From a virus, in IMG/VR virus record IMGVR_UViG_3300020005_000001: 42,405 bases of DNA; one strand, written 5' to 3'. The notes beneath the pieces were generated by a model. The model had not been told where the DNA came from and did no database searches. It worked only from the letters and a program-made list of their open reading frames with translations. Below, piece by piece: positions 1 through 32,321 of the stretch; the first letter of the stretch is position 1; each line of letters starts with the position of its first letter. The translations under genes were made by a program, and so were the position numbers.

Positions 1-127
1 GGGAGATCGAAGCCTTCAATGTGACAGGCATCGAACATCGTCGCGACCGCATCAAGGTAAACAGCCTTCGGCTTGTTGGTGGTTTTCGAGTTGCCGAAGT
101 ACGTGCCGATGAACTTGATCCCGTTAA
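1..127. repeat. Terminal direct repeat, copy 1 (identical to 42279..42405). Most likely an assembly overlap of a circular contig.
   Basis: Base-by-base reading: gggagatcgaagccttcaatgtgacagg...gatgaacttgatcccgttaa occurs at both window ends. Confidence 0.95.
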
Positions 128-2998: not shown

Positions 2999-3969
2999 TA
3001 CCAGCGCCCCTCAGGAAACCACGGCCCGAGATTCGATCCAGTGCGCTCACTGTTTCCGCCCGGTACCACCGTGAACCCCGGTGGACAGGTCACCTGATAG
3101 AGCAAGTTCCGGACGCCCTCGTCGTATTGCAACTTCGCGACGACGAACCGCTTGTCATCGGTCTTTTCGTATTCCTTCATCCGTGCGCCCATCGCCAGCA
3201 GCCGATGGAAGCGCGGCGGGAGCAACGGTTCGTCCGTGGCCGCCGTGAGCGTAAAGAGTTCGTGTTCGATGTCGCAGGTGTAGGTCAGCGCCGACGACGG
3301 CGTGAGGCAGAGGATGAAACCCCAATAGCGCGAGGTCGTTTGCCCTCGAGGAATCACCGCGAAGTTGTTGCCCGCCACCGCGGCATCAGAGAGCACAATG
3401 TCCCCCACCGCCGCCACGCTCAGCGCAAACTGCGTCACGTCGATGTAATCGGTCAACGTGCCGACCTGCACGCGCGTGGTGCCGTTCAACGTCGTGGCCG
3501 CCACGGAGTGCGGGAAGCCGCCCGCACGGATCGCGTCGATCGTGACGGTGACGGCCGTATCCGACGCGCTCGAGCTGTTGACCCACAACCCGGTGCCGGT
3601 CGCCGCCATCTGATCCGCGAGGGCGACGGTCCCGAGCGGGATATACCACTCGGGAACGCCTTCGTTGAGTGCGGGCGCGGGGTTGCGGGCGCGATACCAC
3701 GCGAGCGAACGCGGCTGGAGTGTGACCTGATTCGCCGTGTCCACTATCGACCGGATCTGGGCCTGCGTGGACAGGCCATACCGCGCCCGACTCGCCGAGC
3801 TATTGAGCGTGAGCGTGCCGTAGAGCAACGACCGCAGCGAGGGATTCGACAGCAGTTCCTCGTGTACTTCATTCACGTACGCAGTGATCCGAGTCACGAC
3901 AGACGAATCCGGCGCGGCCAAATAATTGAGGCGTCGGTACGTGTCGAGCAAGATCGCCGCGAGCGTCAT
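2998..3969 (-). CDS. Virion structural protein, putative head-tail adaptor / tubular-A-like.
   Basis: 323-aa ORF between the head genes and the nozzle-like gene. No recognisable motif. Confidence 0.45.
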   Translation of the reverse strand: MTLAAILLDTYRRLNYLAAPDSSVVTRITAYVNEVHEELLSNPSLRSLLYGTLTLNSSASRARYGLSTQAQIRSIVDTANQVTLQPRSLAWYRARNPAPALNEGVPEWYIPLGTVALADQMAATGTGLWVNSSSASDTAVTVTIDAIRAGGFPHSVAATTLNGTTRVQVGTLTDYIDVTQFALSVAAVGDIVLSDAAVAGNNFAVIPRGQTTSRYWGFILCLTPSSALTYTCDIEHELFTLTAATDEPLLPPRFHRLLAMGARMKEYEKTDDKRFVVAKLQYDEGVRNLLYQVTCPPGFTVVPGGNSERTGSNLGPWFPEGRW

Positions 3970-3970
3970 G

Positions 3971-4606
3971 CTACGCGCTCACCGTCTGGGAATCCTGACT
4001 GGCTTTCACCAGCCGCTCCAGTTCCGCGATGCGCGCGATCATGTCCAGTGGGGTCACCGCCTTCGGTCCCTGCGCGAGTTCCATTAGGATCTCCGGCAGC
4101 GACTTGGGCAGATCGTTCAGTTCGTCCAGCGTGAACGACGGCACATTGACCTGGAGCCGTCGCCCGTTCTGGTCGATCTTCGCCCTCCAGGTTTCGCCAC
4201 GCGCCGTGCAATCCGCCGTGATGGCGTTGAAGCTCTCGATCTCGAGCGGCGTCAGTTCGTCCTCGGTTTCGCGGTGGTTGTTAAAGTACGTCTCACGTAC
4301 CAAGCGCGGCTTGGGCCGCTTGAGATCGCCCTCCGGGTACGAGAACACGCTCTTGTGCTCGTGATCGGCGTTGGAGTGCCGGACGGTGCGCCTGGATTCC
4401 TGCTCGGCGCGATTCGTCTTCAGAATCTCCGCCAGCGCCTCCGGCGTCAGACCCGCCGCGGGCGAACTCGCCGGCAAGCTGGCGATGAGTTCGCGCAACT
4501 GCTCCATGCTCATCGCAATGAGCGGGGAGGCGGCCGGAGCCGCCGCGGGCCGTTCCGGTGCATTCGTGTCGTTCGCTGCTTTTTCCACTGTCCACCCTTT
4601 CGCCAT
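3971..4606 (-). CDS. Hypothetical structural-module protein (211 aa).
   Basis: ORF 3971..4780 trimmed to ATG 4606, which has a GAGGAA RBS and avoids overlap with 4614..4907. Confidence 0.55.
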   Translation of the reverse strand: MAKGWTVEKAANDTNAPERPAAAPAASPLIAMSMEQLRELIASLPASSPAAGLTPEALAEILKTNRAEQESRRTVRHSNADHEHKSVFSYPEGDLKRPKPRLVRETYFNNHRETEDELTPLEIESFNAITADCTARGETWRAKIDQNGRRLQVNVPSFTLDELNDLPKSLPEILMELAQGPKAVTPLDMIARIAELERLVKASQDSQTVSA

Positions 4607-28756: not shown

Positions 28757-29038
28757 CTAGATAGGCCAGAAACAGCCGAGCACCCAATACATCGGGTCAC
28801 TCGTCGTGAGGTTCTTGCAGGGGTCCGTTATGACCACCTCGTCGTCAGCGCGGGCCACCGTCGCCCCAACGGTGCCAAGGATGCCGATGGTCACCACGGC
28901 CACGAGGACCCGCTTGACCTTGGTCGGCCGATACGCCGCGAGATGCGCGATGAGCACCGCGAGCGCCATGGACACCGACAAGCCCCCAGCCGTCGCCAGC
29001 GCATCCGGCCACACCGAGACGATCACCATCGCGGTCAT
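28757..29038 (-). CDS. Membrane protein (about 3 TM, 93 aa).
   Basis: Hydrophobic segments in the ORF-track translation. Confidence 0.55.
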   Translation of the reverse strand: MTAMVIVSVWPDALATAGGLSVSMALAVLIAHLAAYRPTKVKRVLVAVVTIGILGTVGATVARADDEVVITDPCKNLTTSDPMYWVLGCFWPI

Positions 29039-29391
29039 GCCGTCTTTCTCCAGTCGGGAATCAGATCCGCGATTTTCTTGGCACCGAGCACCGCCGCGCC
29101 ACGGATAAGGGCGAGGTCCTCCGGCGCGATCACCGCCGCCCCGAGGCGTGCGGCGCGACGCCGGAGGAAGGACACGTGAAACCCCATCGGGAGGAACGAG
29201 AGCCGATAGGCGTTAAGGGGTTCCGTGCCGGCAAGCTGACGGGAGAGTTGCTGTTCGCTTGAGAGCCCCATCTCAATCGCGGCGGCCTTCTGGCTGATCC
29301 CGCTGTCGGCCAGTGCCCCCACGATGTCCTGCGCGTAGGCGCGGGAGTCCTCCGTATGGCCGGTCCACGCGGCGAAGAGGCCGCCCATCAT
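29035..29391 (-). CDS. HTH DNA-binding protein (cII-like position).
   Basis: GISQKAAAIEMGLSSEQQLSRQLAG. Confidence 0.5.
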   Translation of the reverse strand: MMGGLFAAWTGHTEDSRAYAQDIVGALADSGISQKAAAIEMGLSSEQQLSRQLAGTEPLNAYRLSFLPMGFHVSFLRRRAARLGAAVIAPEDLALIRGAAVLGAKKIADLIPDWRKTA

Positions 29392-29645
29392 CGGGCGACC
29401 CCCGCAAGCGTCTTGTAGGTACGAACCGGACGGGCCTGGAGTAGAGTCGCTCCCGTGACGAGATCAGGCTGGACAGGCGCGGCGGGTTGGGTTACTGTGG
29501 CGCATCGCTCACGCGATGCCCGCCGACAGAAATTCCCAAGGAAATCGGTAACTTTGCAAACCGCAAAGTAAACCGACCATACATTATCGGAACCCGCATC
29601 AATCGCCAGCAATTCCGCCGTCCGCGTTGTAGGACAGACACTCAT
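29388..29645 (-). CDS. Hypothetical protein (85 aa).
   Basis: Trimmed to ATG 29645. Contains the inverted repeat at 29552-29570. Confidence 0.45.
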   Translation of the reverse strand: MSVCPTTRTAELLAIDAGSDNVWSVYFAVCKVTDFLGNFCRRASRERCATVTQPAAPVQPDLVTGATLLQARPVRTYKTLAGVAR

Positions 29646-29646
29646 A

Positions 29647-29871
29647 CTACGCAACCTTCGCAATTTCGGCGATCGTCTCGATCGGCACATTCGTGGTTTT
29701 CGCCAGCCGCAGCACGACGTCAAGTGAGGCGCGGCGTTTGCCCCCGAGGATGTTGCACAGGTGGGATCTGCTGATTCCACACAACTTAGCGAGAGCGCCC
29801 TGGTTGGTCCCCGTCGCGTCTTGCCATGCTTCGACTGAGGAAAAGGCGCGTTTTGGACGGCGATAATTCAT
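29647..29871 (-). CDS. Cro-like XRE-family HTH regulator, first gene of the leftward operon.
   Basis: QGALAKLCGISRSHLCNILGGKRRASLDVVLRLAKTTNVPIETI. Confidence 0.7.
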   Translation of the reverse strand: MNYRRPKRAFSSVEAWQDATGTNQGALAKLCGISRSHLCNILGGKRRASLDVVLRLAKTTNVPIETIAEIAKVA

Positions 29872-29902
29872 GTGACCTCAGAGAAAGTCGTAACGTGTGA
29901 CG

Positions 29903-29930
29903 ATATTACGCCTTTTGCCGAAGTTTGCAA
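29903..29930 (-). promoter_or_regulatory. Leftward early promoter (TTGCAA - 16 nt - TAATAT).
   Basis: Minus-strand reading cTTGCAAacttcggcaaaaggcgTAATATcgtc, about 30 nt upstream of the GAGG RBS of the Cro-like gene. Lies in the AT-richer 166-bp divergent gap. Confidence 0.55.
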
Positions 29931-30037
29931 GCCCAAACAAGCCTCAAAGTAAGAAAAACTCTAACTTACAGATTTCATTGGACTTACGTGTTTCGTCCAG
30001 CAACAATGTAGGACTAAGACTGCGAGTGAAGGACGCC

Positions 30038-30517
30038 ATGACGACGCGCCACGAGAACGCCGCCGCTCGCGTGCGACGACGCATCGCAGAGTGGGCGAAA
30101 AGCGAAGGTCACGGGAGCCGGAAGCGGCTGGCGGATGCCGTCAAGGGTCTCTACGGGAAAGCCCGGTCCGCCTCATGGGTCACGGACCTCATCGACGGTC
30201 CAGACCATGGCGGACAGGATTTGCGCCTCCGCGATCTCGACGCCGTCGCGGAGGTGATGGGGATTCCACCCGGCGATCTGGTCCGACGCGACGACAACAT
30301 GTACGCGGAAGTCACCCCGTCAGAGCTTCGGATTCTCCGTTTTCATCGGTCGCTCCCAGATGTGACGCGTCATCACATGATGGGCTACTTCGATTACATC
30401 TATAATCTGCAACAGCGGGCGCTGGAGAGTCAGGCGCGGGACCGCGACGAACGCACGGCGGAAGCGAAGCGCCAGCGCGCTCGGGATCAACAGACACGCA
30501 AGCGTCCGCCCGCGTAG
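30038..30517 (+). CDS. cI-like HTH repressor (159 aa), divergent from the Cro-like gene.
   Basis: ORF 29897..30517 trimmed to ATG 30038 (GAAGGA RBS). RRRIAEWAKSEGHGSRKRLADAVKG...LRDLDAVAEVMGIPPGDLV XRE-type HTH with a C-terminal helical/basic tail. Confidence 0.6.
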   Translation: MTTRHENAAARVRRRIAEWAKSEGHGSRKRLADAVKGLYGKARSASWVTDLIDGPDHGGQDLRLRDLDAVAEVMGIPPGDLVRRDDNMYAEVTPSELRILRFHRSLPDVTRHHMMGYFDYIYNLQQRALESQARDRDERTAEAKRQRARDQQTRKRPPA

Positions 30518-30734
30518 GACGAACACTGATTGACAGCGAGCCGTACACTGCTTGGTATGCGATCCCATCTTGCGCATCTCGCCTTGTTCGTCGCCCTATG
30601 GTCCACCGCCGGCGCGGTCCTCTGGGTACGATGGGTGCCGTGCCCACAGCGCGACTGTCTCAGGACATCGATTTCACAGGTGCCGTGAACGGCGGGCGAG
30701 ATGGAAGAAACCGACCTTAGCCAGAGATGCGCTC

Positions 30735-30763
30735 TTGACTATCTCGCGATAATCATTTACTGT
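30735..30763 (+). promoter_or_regulatory. Sigma70-like promoter (TTGACT - 17 nt - TACTGT) driving the structured RNAs and rsr.
   Basis: The predicted +1 at about 30770-30772 coincides with the first base of the RNA unit 1 terminal stem. Confidence 0.5.
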
Positions 30764-30771
30764 CTCTCCTA

Positions 30772-30866
30772 GCCGCCGTGGCGTAGGTGAGGGATACTTC
30801 TTTTGGAGAACGGAAGCGGGCCGAAAGGCAGCGCACGAAAACCCCTCATCGTTTGTTCCCGGTGGC
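30772..30866 (+). ncRNA. Structured RNA unit 1, Y-RNA-like candidate (95 nt).
   Basis: Terminal stem GCCGCCG/CGGUGGC. Conserved bulged helix UGGCGUAG // CGUUUGUUCC. Inner stem GGUGAGGG/CCCUCAUC. Hairpins UUCU[UUUGG]AGAA and GCC[GAAA]GGC. Same fold as unit 2, with compensatory changes. Confidence 0.6.
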
Positions 30867-30875
30867 CTTCTCTCT

Positions 30876-30957
30876 CTCGCCGTGGCGTAGATTGCGGTTA
30901 CTTCATTGCTTATGAACGCCCGCAAGGGCATTTCCGCAGTCGCTTGTTCCCGGCGAG
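30876..30957 (+). ncRNA. Structured RNA unit 2, Y-RNA-like candidate (82 nt).
   Basis: CUCGCCG/CGGCGAG. UGGCGUAG // CGCUUGUUCC. GAUUGCGG/CCGCAGUC. UUCAU[UGCUU]AUGAA and GCCC[GCAA]GGGC. Ends 7 nt before the rsr AGGAGG. Confidence 0.6.
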
Positions 30958-30974
30958 GTTCTTTAGGAGGCAGC

Positions 30975-32321
30975 ATGGCGCGCATAAATGTCGGATCGTC
31001 GGCGTTTGCAGGGACCACGCACGAAGGTGCGCCCGCACGTGCGTTGACGTCCGAGCAGGAATTGCGGCGCTCCGTGCTGGCCTGCCTGCTCTGGGAGGAC
31101 GGCTTTTACGAGTCCGGCAAGTCTGTCGCGGATCGTATCGCGGCACTCGTGCCCACCGTGGCGCCGGAACGTGTCGCCGCACTCGCCATTGAAGCCAGTT
31201 CGCAGATGCACCTCCGGCATACGCCGCTGTTCCTTGTGCGCGAGATGGCGCGGCACGTCTCGCATCGGCCTTTCGTCCGAGCCACGCTGGCGGCCGTCAT
31301 TCAGCGCGCTGACGAACTCACGGAGTTCTTGGCGATCTATTGGGGTGGTGGCGATAAGCGCAAGGCGAAAAACCGGCCGCTGCCGAAGTCTGTGCAGCGT
31401 GGACTAGCTGACGCCTTCGCCAAGTTCAACGGCTACCAGCTCGCCAAGTACAACCGGGACGCGCCGATCACGCTGCGCGATGCGCTGTTCCTCTCGCATG
31501 CGGAACCGAAGGACGATGCGCAGGCGGCGATCTGGAAGCAACTGATTGGGGGGACCCTGCCGGCGCCGGACACGTGGGAAGTCGCCATCACGGCAGCGGG
31601 CAAGGACGCGGCGAAAAAGCGCGCCGAGTGGACGCGCCTCTTGACCGAGCGGAAACTCGGCGGGTTCGCGCTGATCCGCAATCTGCGGAACTTGCAGGGC
31701 TGCAAGGTGGCCGATGCACTCATCCGCTCCGCACTCACCGACATGAAGCCGGATCGGATTCTGCCGTTCCGGTTCTTGGCAGCGGTTCGCCACGCACCGA
31801 CGTTTGCGGCTGAACTGGAATCGGCCATGTTCAAGAACCTTGCCGACCAGCCGCATTTCGACGGCATGACCGTGGTGCTCGTGGACGGGTCCGCGTCCAT
31901 GAATGCGGCGCTATCGGCCAAGTCCGATATGACGCGGCACGATGCGGCGCTCGGTGTCGCCATCGCGGCGCGCGAGTTGTCGGAGTCCTGCCGCGTGTTC
32001 GCCTACTCATCGCGGATGGTGGAGGTTCCGGCCTACCGTGGGCTGGCGCTCAGCGCCGCGATTCTCGGCGCGGTCCCTGCGCAGTCCACCTTGCTTGGCG
32101 CGGCCGTGCGGTGGCTGAATACGAACGTGGAGTACCGCCGACTGATTGTTATTACAGACGAACAGTCGCACGATCCGGTCCCTGGCCCGAACGGGCGCGG
32201 CTACGTCATCAACGTGGCGATGAGCAAGCCGGGTATCGGCTACGGACCGTGGAACCACATCGATGGATGGAGCGACCGCGTCCTCGACTTCGTCTGGGCG
32301 GACGAGTCCGAGCGTGCCTGA
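30975..32321 (+). CDS. rsr: Ro60 ortholog (Rsr): TROVE domain plus vWA/MIDAS domain.
   Basis: ATG 30975 has AGGAGG 5 nt upstream. LLWEDGFYE, LFLVREM, ELTEFLAIYW, YQLAKYNRDAPITLRDALFLSHAEP, LIRNLRNL, ILPFRFLAA, VVLVDGSASM, ITDEQ parallel human Ro60 (KYKQRNGWSHKDLLRLSH.KP, LLRNLGKM, IHPFHIL, LAVDVSASM, FTDNE). Confidence 0.9.
   Translation: MARINVGSSAFAGTTHEGAPARALTSEQELRRSVLACLLWEDGFYESGKSVADRIAALVPTVAPERVAALAIEASSQMHLRHTPLFLVREMARHVSHRPFVRATLAAVIQRADELTEFLAIYWGGGDKRKAKNRPLPKSVQRGLADAFAKFNGYQLAKYNRDAPITLRDALFLSHAEPKDDAQAAIWKQLIGGTLPAPDTWEVAITAAGKDAAKKRAEWTRLLTERKLGGFALIRNLRNLQGCKVADALIRSALTDMKPDRILPFRFLAAVRHAPTFAAELESAMFKNLADQPHFDGMTVVLVDGSASMNAALSAKSDMTRHDAALGVAIAARELSESCRVFAYSSRMVEVPAYRGLALSAAILGAVPAQSTLLGAAVRWLNTNVEYRRLIVITDEQSHDPVPGPNGRGYVINVAMSKPGIGYGPWNHIDGWSDRVLDFVWADESERA

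What the first reader, a model, noticed from the sequence alone, without database searches (positions are those of the whole stretch)
30975..32321. Phage-encoded Ro60 (TROVE + vWA) ortholog
The 448-aa protein carries the TROVE hallmarks (FYE, LFLVREM, YQLAKYNRD...LRDALFLSHAEP, LIRNLRNL, ILPFRF). It also has a C-terminal vWA domain with MIDAS-like DGSAS, and aligns with human Ro60 motif by motif.

Ro/Rsr is an RNA quality-control and RNA-decay scaffold. In Deinococcus it is tethered to PNPase by Y RNA. In Salmonella it is linked to the rtcBA RNA-repair operon.

In a 42-kb podovirus-like genome that has no replication genes of its own, keeping a 1.35-kb RNA-surveillance gene plus its RNAs suggests a role in host takeover, in survival of RNA-targeting defence, or in lysogen fitness.
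Basis: partly seen in the sequence, partly recalled or inferred. Interest (0 to 1): 0.7.

Follow-up and report, generated by a model that had tools for sequence, protein, structure and literature searches.

The report
Phage Ro60 homolog with Y-like RNAs
This complete 42-kb phage genome encodes a real but compact relative of the Ro60 RNA-binding ring protein, preceded by two small structured RNAs that are probably its partners. This kind of phage module is already known and widespread, so it is a solid but largely ordinary find.

Summary
Window 30975-32321 (+) is an intact 448-aa gene with a significant Pfam TROVE hit. Its predicted fold has Ro60 proteins as its 13 best PDB matches (phage phiRo60, human and Xenopus Ro60, Deinococcus Rsr). 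It has a complete vWA MIDAS motif (D304, S306, S308, T372, D395), invariant in 48 homologs.

Directly upstream on the same strand lie two ~90-100-nt structured RNA modules (30771-30870 and 30875-30961). A covariance model built from such modules finds copies next to the Ro gene, always on its strand, in 23 of 24 related loci first tested. Covariation is strong. In many relatives one module carries a YrlA-type tRNA-like core. The window has none; both its modules are of the short type.

A small Arc/RHH-like ORF overlaps the Ro stop codon and is conserved in the closest relatives.

Phage Ro60 proteins with Y-like RNAs are already known (mycobacteriophages, 2003/2014; Thermus phage phiLo, structure and PNPase binding, 2025; Bas63 gp130, an anti-defence factor, 2024). 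The family has thousands of members. Verdict: a new member of a known kind. Function in this phage is inferred, not shown.

The parts
30735..30763 (+). Promoter-like site for the Yrl-Ro operon: -35 TTGACT (30735-30740), 17-nt spacer containing CGATAATCA (near-palindrome), -10 TACTGT (30758-30763)
   Evidence: Read from the sequence. Relatives have an equivalent TTGAC(N)-17 nt-(-10) just 5' of their first module: L027, L028, L026, L029, L032 and L054. blastn conserves only this part of the upstream gap, in L028. The consensus scanner did not list it because the -10 is weak. Inference only; no transcript data.
30771..30870 (+). Y-RNA-like module 1 (Yrl1). It has an outer stem, a bulged U, a conserved internal loop (5' GGCGUAG / 3' UUGUUCC) and an inner stem ending in AUACUUC. 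The distal domain is GAACGGAAGCGGG-GNRA hairpin-CAGCGCACGAAAA. There is no tRNA-like domain.
   Evidence: cmsearch 65.3 bits, E 1.5e-16. Fold. Covariation. It is 83.5% identical over 85 nt in phages whose Ro gene matches only over a ~180-nt stretch at ~66% DNA identity. 15 further distinct modules from other loci share the distal domain and were aligned with it.
30875..30961 (+). Y-RNA-like module 2 (Yrl2). It has the same basal architecture, and its distal part is two small hairpins (UUCAUUGCUUAUGAA and GCCC-GCAA-GGGC). Its flanks match the long YrlA-type module of relatives L027 and L028, but the ~66-nt tRNA-like core is absent.
   Evidence: cmsearch 72.7 bits, E 1.1e-18. Comparison with L027 9673-9811 and the L028 long module. 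No T-arm motif nearby. No Rfam YrlA hit at E<=10.
30965..30970 (+). Shine-Dalgarno AGGAGG, 4 nt before the ATG and outside the module 2 stem (which ends at 30958)
   Evidence: Sequence; fold.
30975..32321 (+). Ro60 homolog, 448 aa. The HEAT-repeat (TROVE) ring is about aa 11-290. The vWA domain is about aa 295-430 (nt 31857-32264), with MIDAS residues D304, S306, S308 (nt 31884-31898), T372 (32088-32090) and D395 (32157-32159). A C-terminal helix spans aa 436-447.
   Evidence: Pfam TROVE 8.4e-17. PHROG 850 3.5e-40. phiRo60 by phmmer 2.8e-19 and by profile 6e-44. AF2 pLDDT 85.7. The Foldseek top 13 are all Ro60 proteins, TM 0.59-0.71. Invariant residues.
32263..32466 (+). Small Arc/ribbon-helix-helix-like ORF. 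The longest ORF is 67 aa. The likely start is GTG 32314, which gives 50 aa and overlaps the Ro stop codon (GTGCCTGA), suggesting translational coupling.
   Evidence: RHH_1 E 0.0063. PHROG 6506 'Arc-like repressor' E 1.7e-4. Conserved just after or overlapping the Ro gene in the four closest relatives L026-L029 at 57-69% identity, where 44-48-aa genes are called in L026 and L028.

Best explanation
The locus is a phage Ro60-Y RNA operon. A promoter at about 30735-30763 drives one transcript carrying two Y-RNA-like modules (Yrl1, Yrl2), the 448-aa Ro60 homolog and a small Arc/RHH-like protein.

The protein folds into the Ro60 ring: HEAT repeats closed by a vWA domain with an intact MIDAS site. 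The two RNAs are most likely cut out of the precursor, as in M. smegmatis. They would then bind the outer face of the ring through their conserved bulged helix (5' G-U-GG-CG-UAG / 3' UUG-UU-CC), which corresponds to the GNCGAA(N)G Ro-binding motif of bacterial Y RNAs.

The variable distal domains of the RNAs would then tether the ring to a host factor. By analogy with Deinococcus/Salmonella Rsr and Thermus phage phiRo60, that factor is most plausibly a 3'-5' exoribonuclease such as PNPase. The phage would thereby redirect or dampen host RNA decay or surveillance during infection, possibly as a counter-defence.

Shown here: the homology, the fold, the MIDAS site, and the existence, conservation, strand and covariation of the RNAs. 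Inferred: processing of the precursor, binding of the RNAs to the protein, the identity of the host partner, and the benefit to the phage.
For: Protein:
- TROVE HMM hit and PHROG 850.
- Full-length alignment to phiRo60 with all four MIDAS ligands matched.
- A family profile reaches human and Xenopus Ro60 and Rsr.
- A confident AF2 model whose top 13 PDB matches are all Ro60 proteins.

RNAs:
- Two tandem modules fold alike.
- RNAalifold independently recovers both basal stems, with compensatory changes in 10 of 15 pairs.
- 87% of cells are paired, against 41-55% in the slid controls and 68.5% in shuffles (0/500).
- On 64 modules, 90.5% are paired against 38-50%, and 17 of 19 pairs show double changes. 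This alignment was fitted to the model.
- The model finds 55 hits in 23 of 24 loci, all on the Ro strand and nearly all just upstream. In the window it finds only these two, with the next best hit at 10 bits.
- Long modules in relatives match Rfam YrlA (48.8 bits, E 5.6e-10 in a local search).
- Module 1 is more conserved than the Ro gene across phages (83.5% over 85 nt; the gene matches only over a ~180-nt stretch at ~66%).

Literature:
- Y RNAs lie within 4 kb of Ro on the same strand, and M. smegmatis YrlA and YrlB are processed from one precursor upstream of rsr (PMC4201824).
- phiRo60 binds two upstream Yrls and host PNPase and attenuates PNPase activity (PMC12135203).
- Bas63 gp130, a Ro60-like protein, counters the ppl defence system (PMC11482910).
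- The crAss001 TROVE gene is an early gene (PMC8375218).
Against: - There is no expression, processing or binding data for this phage, and the host is unknown.
- Only 3 of the 8 basic residues shown to matter for Yrl binding in phiRo60 align with basic residues here (K130, R142, R168).
- The 5' motif is GGCGUAG, one base off the published GNCGAA(N)G.
- The window lacks the tRNA-like YrlA-type RNA. Chen et al. 2014 found one in every characterised species, so partner recruitment may differ here.
- No PNPase, RtcB or RNA ligase gene is in the window, so any partner must come from the host.
- Module 2 ends 16 nt before the ATG, so a purely cis-acting role is not excluded.
Confidence: 0.75

Rival explanations
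1. RNA-repair or anti-nuclease scaffold. The Ro-Yrl RNP works with host RNA-repair enzymes (RtcB/RtcA, RNA ligases) to counter defence nucleases that cleave tRNA or rRNA, rather than acting through PNPase.
For: - The Salmonella rsr-yrlBA-rtcBA operon (PMC4201824).
- Jumbo phages pair ROT/TROVE proteins with RNA-repair systems (PMC7824862).
- The 70%-identical relative L027 has RLIG1 and RlaP genes 4-6 kb upstream of its Ro gene.
Against: - The window has no RNA ligase, RtcB, kinase or phosphatase gene.
- tblastn with the L027 RLIG1 and RlaP proteins finds nothing in the window or in almost any other locus.
- The window lacks the tRNA-like Y RNA that would be the obvious decoy or platform.
Confidence: 0.2
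2. The upstream modules are mainly a cis-acting 5' leader of the Ro mRNA, for example for autoregulation or mRNA stabilisation by Ro binding, and not stable trans-acting Y RNAs.
For: - The modules sit between the promoter-like site and the Shine-Dalgarno sequence with no terminator between them.
- Module 2 ends 6 nt before the SD.
- In nearly all loci the modules abut the Ro start codon.
Against: - Homologous long modules are YrlA-like. YrlA and YrlB are experimentally stable, Rsr-bound RNAs processed from such precursors (PMC4201824).
- Arrays of up to six copies, and copies downstream of the gene (L022, L023), are hard to explain as a leader.
- The SD is not sequestered.
Confidence: 0.12
3. 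Lysogeny-expressed 'moron'. The operon is expressed from a prophage and benefits the host (stress survival, as with bacterial Rsr, or exclusion of superinfecting phages) rather than serving lytic growth.
For: - The + strand island (30038-32466) sits between the end of the late genes and a divergent Cro/CI-type HTH gene (29647-29871, -). That is the classic immunity-region position.
- It has its own promoter.
- It carries an Arc-like regulator.
Against: - No integrase or recombinase was detected in the complete genome.
- The 159-aa neighbour has no recognisable repressor domain.
- Homologs are common in strictly lytic phages (crAss001, where it is an early gene; jumbo phages).
Confidence: 0.12

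Closest known systems
phiRo60 with Yrl1/Yrl2 of Thermus phage phiLo (PDB 9KOP, 9L5Y; Hu et al., NAR 2025, PMC12135203)
   Same: It is the best sequence and structure match (phmmer 2.8e-19, profile 6e-44, Foldseek E 6e-19, TM 0.67). Both have a ring of HEAT repeats plus vWA, and all four MIDAS ligands are conserved. Both are phage-encoded, with two Y-like RNAs directly upstream on the same strand.
   Different: Identity is only 23-24%. The proteins are 448 and 502 aa. Only 3 of 8 mapped RNA-contact basic residues are retained. The phiLo Yrls were defined by a CGAA motif and folding, whereas here the RNAs belong to a covariation-supported family with both strands of the binding helix conserved. 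PNPase binding has not been tested here.
Bacterial Rsr with YrlA/YrlB (Salmonella, M. smegmatis) and Rsr-Yrn1-PNPase (RYPER) of Deinococcus (Chen et al. 2013/2014, PMC4201824; PDB 2NVO)
   Same: The fold is the same (TM 0.61 to 2NVO). The Y RNAs are encoded next to Ro on the same strand and are probably co-transcribed. The 5' motif resembles GNCGAA(N)G. Relatives of the window carry YrlA-type tRNA-like modules that score against Rfam RF02553.
   Different: The window has no tRNA-like Y RNA and no rtcBA linkage. The protein is about 90 aa shorter than Rsr and is detectable only by profile (E 1.8e-5). The basal helix of these RNAs is not matched by the Rfam YrlA model: only model positions 23-86 align.
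Metazoan Ro60 with Y RNAs (PDB 1YVP, 1YVR, 2I91, 9NEN)
   Same: Ring plus vWA/MIDAS fold (TMq 0.59-0.71). The partner RNA has a conserved bulged helix formed by its 5' and 3' ends. From my own knowledge of the hY RNA sequences, the 5' GG(U)CCGAAGG / 3' CUUGAC of animal Y RNAs resembles the 5' GGCG(W)AGG / 3' CUUGUUCC seen here.
   Different: 14-17% identity. The animal protein is about 540 aa. Animal Y RNAs are separate Pol III genes bound by La. The biology is different.
Bas63 gp130, a Ro60-like counter-defence protein (PhageMaP preprint, PMC11482910)
   Same: A phage-encoded protein with a Ro60-like structure. It is the only phage case with a genetic phenotype (it counters the ppl defence system).
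   Different: Homology to the window protein was not tested here. The Bas63 gene lies next to tRNA genes rather than Yrl arrays. The ppl system may be irrelevant to this unknown host.

Membership tests
Ro60 / Rsr (TROVE2) protein family | HEAT-repeat TROVE domain forming a closed ring | tested here: met
   Pfam TROVE 61.9 bits against a cutoff of 23. AF2 model with pLDDT 85.7 and pTM 0.79. Full-length Foldseek matches to 13 Ro60 chains, TM 0.59-0.71.
Ro60 / Rsr (TROVE2) protein family | C-terminal vWA domain with a MIDAS motif (DxSxS...T...D) | tested here: met
   D304, S306, S308, T372 and D395 are invariant in 48 homologs. They align to the Ca2+ ligands D322, S324, T391 and D416 of phiRo60 (PMC12135203). 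vWA domains follow the Ro60 hits in Foldseek. Pfam VWA_2 alone is sub-threshold.
Ro60 / Rsr (TROVE2) protein family | Sequence homology to canonical Ro60 and Rsr | tested here: met
   Profile of 48 homologs: human Ro60 4.1e-10, Xenopus 5.9e-7, Rsr 1.8e-5. A single-sequence search reaches only phiRo60.
Ro60 / Rsr (TROVE2) protein family | Partner Y RNA(s) encoded close by on the same strand | tested here: met
   Two modules at 30771-30961, 14 nt upstream of the ATG. The same arrangement is found in 23 of 24 related loci.
Ro60 / Rsr (TROVE2) protein family | Physical binding of Y RNA on the outer surface and of misfolded RNA 3' ends in the cavity | not testable with these tools
   Needs EMSA, RIP or a structure. 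Only 3 of 8 phiRo60 RNA-contact basic residues are conserved by alignment.
YrlA (Rfam RF02553) bacterial Y RNA | tRNA-like domain (T arm, acceptor-like hairpin, D arm) | tested here: not met
   No Rfam YrlA hit in 29000-34000 at E<=10. No T-arm motif near the gene. Module 2 has a 14-nt GNRA hairpin where the L027 and L028 orthologs have the 66-nt tRNA-like core. Relatives do meet this feature.
YrlA (Rfam RF02553) bacterial Y RNA | 5' GNCGAA(N0-1)G Ro-binding motif in a basal stem formed by the 5' and 3' ends | tested here: inconclusive
   Both window modules have GGCGUAG, one mismatch from the motif. Several relatives have an exact GGCGAAG (L003, L011 and L032 among others). The basal stem itself is strongly supported by covariation.
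YrlB / Yrn2-type short Y RNAs | Ro-binding stem plus a simple distal hairpin region, no tRNA mimicry, encoded next to Ro alongside other Y RNAs | tested here: met
   Architecture of both window modules. This is a loose structural class, not a sequence family; Chen et al. found YrlB orthologs only within Salmonella (PMC4201824).
RYPER (Ro-Y RNA-PNPase) machine | Y RNA tethers Ro to PNPase | not testable with these tools
   No PNPase gene in the window, and the host is unknown. Analogy only (PMC12135203, PMC4201824).

The most novel reading that the evidence does not exclude
This phage's Ro may work only with non-tRNA-like Y RNAs. One of them (module 1) carries a distal domain absent from Rfam 15: ...UACUUC-N4-GG-N-GRACGGAAGCGGG-[covarying GNRA/UUCG hairpin]-CAGCGCACGAA... 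This domain is kept almost unchanged across phages of very different GC content whose Ro proteins are only 43-70% identical. It would be a new Y-RNA effector or tether domain, directing phage Ro to a partner other than those reached through tRNA mimicry. It would also show that tRNA mimicry is dispensable for Ro function in phages.
Probability: 0.3. Interest if true: 0.5.

Novelty: new member of a known kind. Interest (0 to 1): 0.3.

Why it matters
As a gene call, it adds one more uncultivated phage to a large, already recognised set of phages that carry Ro60 plus Y-like RNAs.

Three by-products may be more useful than the gene itself:
- A covariation-supported model of the Ro-binding basal helix. 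It finds unannotated Y-RNA arrays next to Ro genes in many phages, including cultured ones. Xanthomonas phage Sopo, for example, has five modules in a 675-nt 'empty' gap.
- Natural variants, this window among them, in which the tRNA-like core of the YrlA-type RNA is missing.
- A strongly conserved alternative distal domain.

These give concrete RNAs and mutants for testing what phage Ro RNPs do. The leading ideas are hijacking of host exoribonucleases and counter-defence. That question is still open despite the 2025 structure.

Tried and rejected
- ARAGORN found no tRNA or tmRNA in the window.
- Rfam found nothing at gathering level in the window. At E<=10 in 29000-34000 it found only a chance snoRNA hit. 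The RNAs are therefore not recognisable as YrlA or Y_RNA by Rfam.
- NCBIfam gave no hit for the protein.
- Megablast of 29000-34000 against GenBank phages gave no match. blastn of the Yrl region against the same collection gave no match either.
- The TTG start at 30906 was rejected. It overlaps module 2, the homolog N-termini agree with the ATG, and the SD precedes the ATG.
- The sigma-70 scanner found no promoter. The promoter proposed here rests on comparison with relatives and is an inference.
- No integrase, replication or RNA-repair gene was found by a Pfam sweep of 50 ORFs. PHROGs left most structural ORFs unassigned.
- The 159-aa upstream ORF (30038-30517) has no family hit and no homolog in related loci. 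It is not part of the conserved module.
- The L027 RNA ligase and RlaP proteins have no counterpart in the window.
- About 10 of the 33 metagenome pattern hits were chance matches in coding DNA without the Yrl frame, and were discarded. The invariance of the two pattern halves among the rest is partly due to how they were found.
- The remainder of the upstream gap (30518-30734) and the downstream gap (32467-32717) have no conserved counterpart in relatives.
- The whole-gap fold energy is not better than shuffles (z = -0.17). The support for the RNAs comes from comparison, not from thermodynamics.
Full report
**1. The observation**

The window has an ORF at 30906-32321 (+). An AGGAGG lies 4 nt upstream of this ATG. 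48 homologs share the N-terminus MARxN...THEGAPAR, so 30975 is the real start. The longer TTG start would run through a structured RNA.

- Pfam TROVE is significant (E 8.4e-17; 61.9 bits against a cutoff of 23). VWA_2 is sub-threshold.
- NCBIfam gives nothing.
- PHROG 850 'RNA-binding protein' scores 3.5e-40.

**2. Is it a Ro60?**

A single-sequence search of PDB sequences finds only the 'TROVE domain-containing protein' of entries 9KOP and 9L5Y (E 2.8e-19, full length). These entries are phiRo60 of Thermus phage phiLo (PMC12135203).

A profile of 48 homologs reaches phiRo60 at 6e-44, human Ro60 at 4e-10, Xenopus Ro60 at 6e-7 and Deinococcus Rsr at 1.8e-5.

An AlphaFold2 model (pLDDT 85.7, pTM 0.79) has Ro60 proteins as its 13 best PDB matches: phiRo60, human, Xenopus and Rsr. 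These are full-length alignments with TM 0.59-0.71. Isolated vWA domains follow them in the list.

The Ca2+ ligands of the phiRo60 MIDAS site (D322, S324, T391, D416) align to D304, S306, T372 and D395. Together with S308 these are invariant in the family alignment.

The protein is therefore a genuine but compact and divergent Ro60 homolog: 448 aa against 500-540, and 14-24% identity to solved structures. Of the eight basic residues whose mutation weakens Yrl binding in phiRo60, three align with basic residues here (K130, R142, R168).

**3. The RNAs**

The 457-nt gap upstream of the gene contains two direct-repeat pairs. These are the 5' and 3' strands of two tandem modules that fold alike.

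The same 5' (GCCGTGGCGTAG) and 3' (TTGTTCCCGG) strings recur in tandem just upstream of the Ro gene in distantly related loci from IMG/VR and GTDB, whose proteins are at most 55% identical.

All modules share one architecture:
- a variable outer stem;
- a bulged U;
- a conserved internal loop (5' GG-YG-NAG / 3' YUGUUCC);
- a variable inner stem ending in GGUUACUUC;
- a variable distal domain.

On a MAFFT alignment of 20 short modules:
- RNAalifold independently predicts both stems, with compensatory changes in 10 of 15 pairs.
- The named structure has 87.3% of cells paired, against 68.5% in shuffles (0/500) and 41-55% when partners are slid.
- It has 80 double-change cells against 34.5 in shuffles.

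A covariance model built from this alignment, run over the whole window with filters off, finds only 30875-30961 (72.7 bits) and 30771-30870 (65.3 bits). The next best hit scores 10 bits.

In 24 related loci the model finds 55 hits in 23 of them. All are on the Ro strand and almost all within about 1.2 kb upstream. On 64 modules, 90.5% of cells pair against 38-50% in the slid controls, and 17 of 19 pairs show double changes. That alignment was fitted to the model, so it leans towards the structure.

**4. Relation to known Y RNAs**

In many relatives one module is long (130-170 nt) and contains a T arm, a GNRA-capped hairpin and a D arm. Rfam YrlA (RF02553) matches this core in L001 at 48.8 bits (E 5.6e-10 in the local search, below the gathering score of 69). 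Only model positions 23-86 align.

The 5' GGCG(W)AG corresponds to the GNCGAA(N)G motif that Chen et al. proposed as the Rsr-binding site. Some relatives have an exact GGCGAAG. The window has GGCGUAG.

The window has no tRNA-like module. Module 2 shares its flanks almost exactly with the long module of the closest relatives L027 and L028, but it has a 14-nt GNRA hairpin in place of the ~66-nt tRNA-like core.

About six of the 24 locus types with module hits (window included) lack a tRNA-like module. So do L054 (67% aa identity, same two-module order) and L032. The four closest full-context relatives (L026-L029) all have one.

Module 1 carries a different distal domain: GAACGGAAGCGGG-hairpin-CAGCGCACGAAAA.
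- It is 83.5% identical over 85 nt in a low-GC phage lineage whose Ro gene matches the window only over a ~180-nt stretch, at ~66% DNA identity.
- Pattern scans of IMG/VR and metagenomes, after chance coding hits were removed, left 15 further distinct modules of this type that were aligned with the window's. All sit in the Yrl frame, and wherever the contig extends far enough a Ro gene follows.
- The hairpin stem covaries and is capped by GNRA or UUCG loops.
- The invariance of the two pattern halves is partly an artefact of how the sequences were found.

**5. Operon and context**

A -35 TTGACT / 17 nt / -10 TACTGT sits at 30735-30763, just 5' of module 1. Equivalent promoters precede the first module in relatives, and this is the only part of the gap conserved by blastn. 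The generic scanner did not report it. It is an inference.

A small Arc/RHH-like ORF (weak hits) overlaps the Ro stop codon. It is conserved in the four closest relatives.

The window is a complete phage genome:
- a 127-bp exact terminal overlap;
- major head protein and terminase, HNH, and ERF, YqaJ and NinB;
- no integrase, polymerase, helicase, RNA ligase, RtcB or PNPase detected among 50 ORFs.

The + strand island sits between the late genes and a divergent Cro/CI-type HTH gene. The codon usage and GC content of the Ro gene match the rest of the genome, so it is not a recent capture.

**6. How common, and what is known**

The protein family has:
- more than 7,471 90%-identity clusters at E<=1e-10;
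- 3,763 50%-identity clusters at E<=1e-3;
- matches in 87 GenBank phage records, including Xanthomonas, Brevundimonas, Caulobacter, Rhizobium, Streptomyces, crAss001 and jumbo phages.

In cultured Xanthomonas phage Sopo, the model finds five modules in an unannotated 675-nt gap upstream of the gene.

From the literature:
- Ro60 in mycobacteriophages since 2003, and YrlA-like RNAs next to Ro in 22 phages (PMC4201824).
- The crAss001 TROVE gene is an early gene.
- Jumbo-phage TROVE proteins have been discussed together with RNA repair.
- Bas63 gp130 (Ro60-like) counters the ppl defence system.
- phiRo60 binds two upstream Yrls and host PNPase and slows PNPase.

**7. Verdict**

The most likely mechanism is a phage Ro-Yrl RNP that engages a host RNA-decay or RNA-repair factor. 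This rests on analogy and is untested here.

It is a new member of a known kind. The modestly new elements are the absence of any tRNA-like Y RNA, a conserved alternative distal domain, and the coupled RHH gene.

Noticed in passing
window 1-127 and 42279-42405: There is an exact 127-bp direct repeat at the two ends. This is the signature of a circularly assembled, complete genome of about 42,278 bp. The absence of integrase and replication genes therefore applies to the whole genome, within Pfam's sensitivity.
   Followed up: yes
window 32263-32466 (+): An Arc/ribbon-helix-helix-like small ORF overlaps the Ro stop codon (GTG 32314 / TGA 32319-32321). It is conserved downstream of Ro in L026-L029 only. 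It may regulate the operon. A near-palindrome CGATAATCA (30747-30755) lies in the promoter spacer, and TGATAATCA / TGATTATCA lie at the same place in L027 and L028.
   Followed up: partly
L030 (Xanthomonas phage Sopo, LR743529.1) 2319-2927: Five Yrl modules (E 1e-18 to 2e-6) fill an unannotated 675-nt gap upstream of the 'hypothetical protein' that is the Ro homolog of this cultured phage. This is a ready experimental system.
   Followed up: partly
L031 (crAss001, MH675552.1) 3946-4034: There is a weak model hit (16.9 bits, E 0.003) in the 900-nt unannotated gap downstream of the crAss001 TROVE gene gp96. It could be a divergent Y-like RNA, or it could be chance.
   Followed up: no
L027 1215-6292: The 70%-identical relative carries RLIG1 (RNA ligase), RlaP (RNA-repair nucleotidyltransferase) and T4_Y16D genes a few kb upstream of its Yrl-Ro operon. 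None of these is in the window.
   Followed up: partly
L014 3485-3552; L010 6058-6368: The tRNA-like core of one Yrl module in L014 passes Rfam's tRNA gathering score (30.2 bits). This shows how annotation pipelines can call such modules tRNAs. L010 has four genuine tRNA genes 3 kb downstream of its Ro gene.
   Followed up: no
window 30561-30582 and 30726-30747: A direct repeat (73% identity) duplicates the promoter-like sequence GAT.C..TCTTG(C/A)..ATCTCGC. The upstream copy resembles the -35 region of the L026 and L029 promoters. The 140 nt between the copies is GC-rich, folds strongly, and has no counterpart in relatives.
   Followed up: partly
window 30038-30517 (+): A 159-aa ORF lies between the Cro/CI-like gene and the Yrl-Ro operon. 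It has no Pfam or PHROG hit and no homolog in any related locus. It might be this phage's repressor, but nothing supports that.
   Followed up: partly
window 32718-32882 (-): A 54-aa ORF with a CPHC...CPCC zinc-ribbon pattern is convergent with the Ro operon. It was not analysed further.
   Followed up: no
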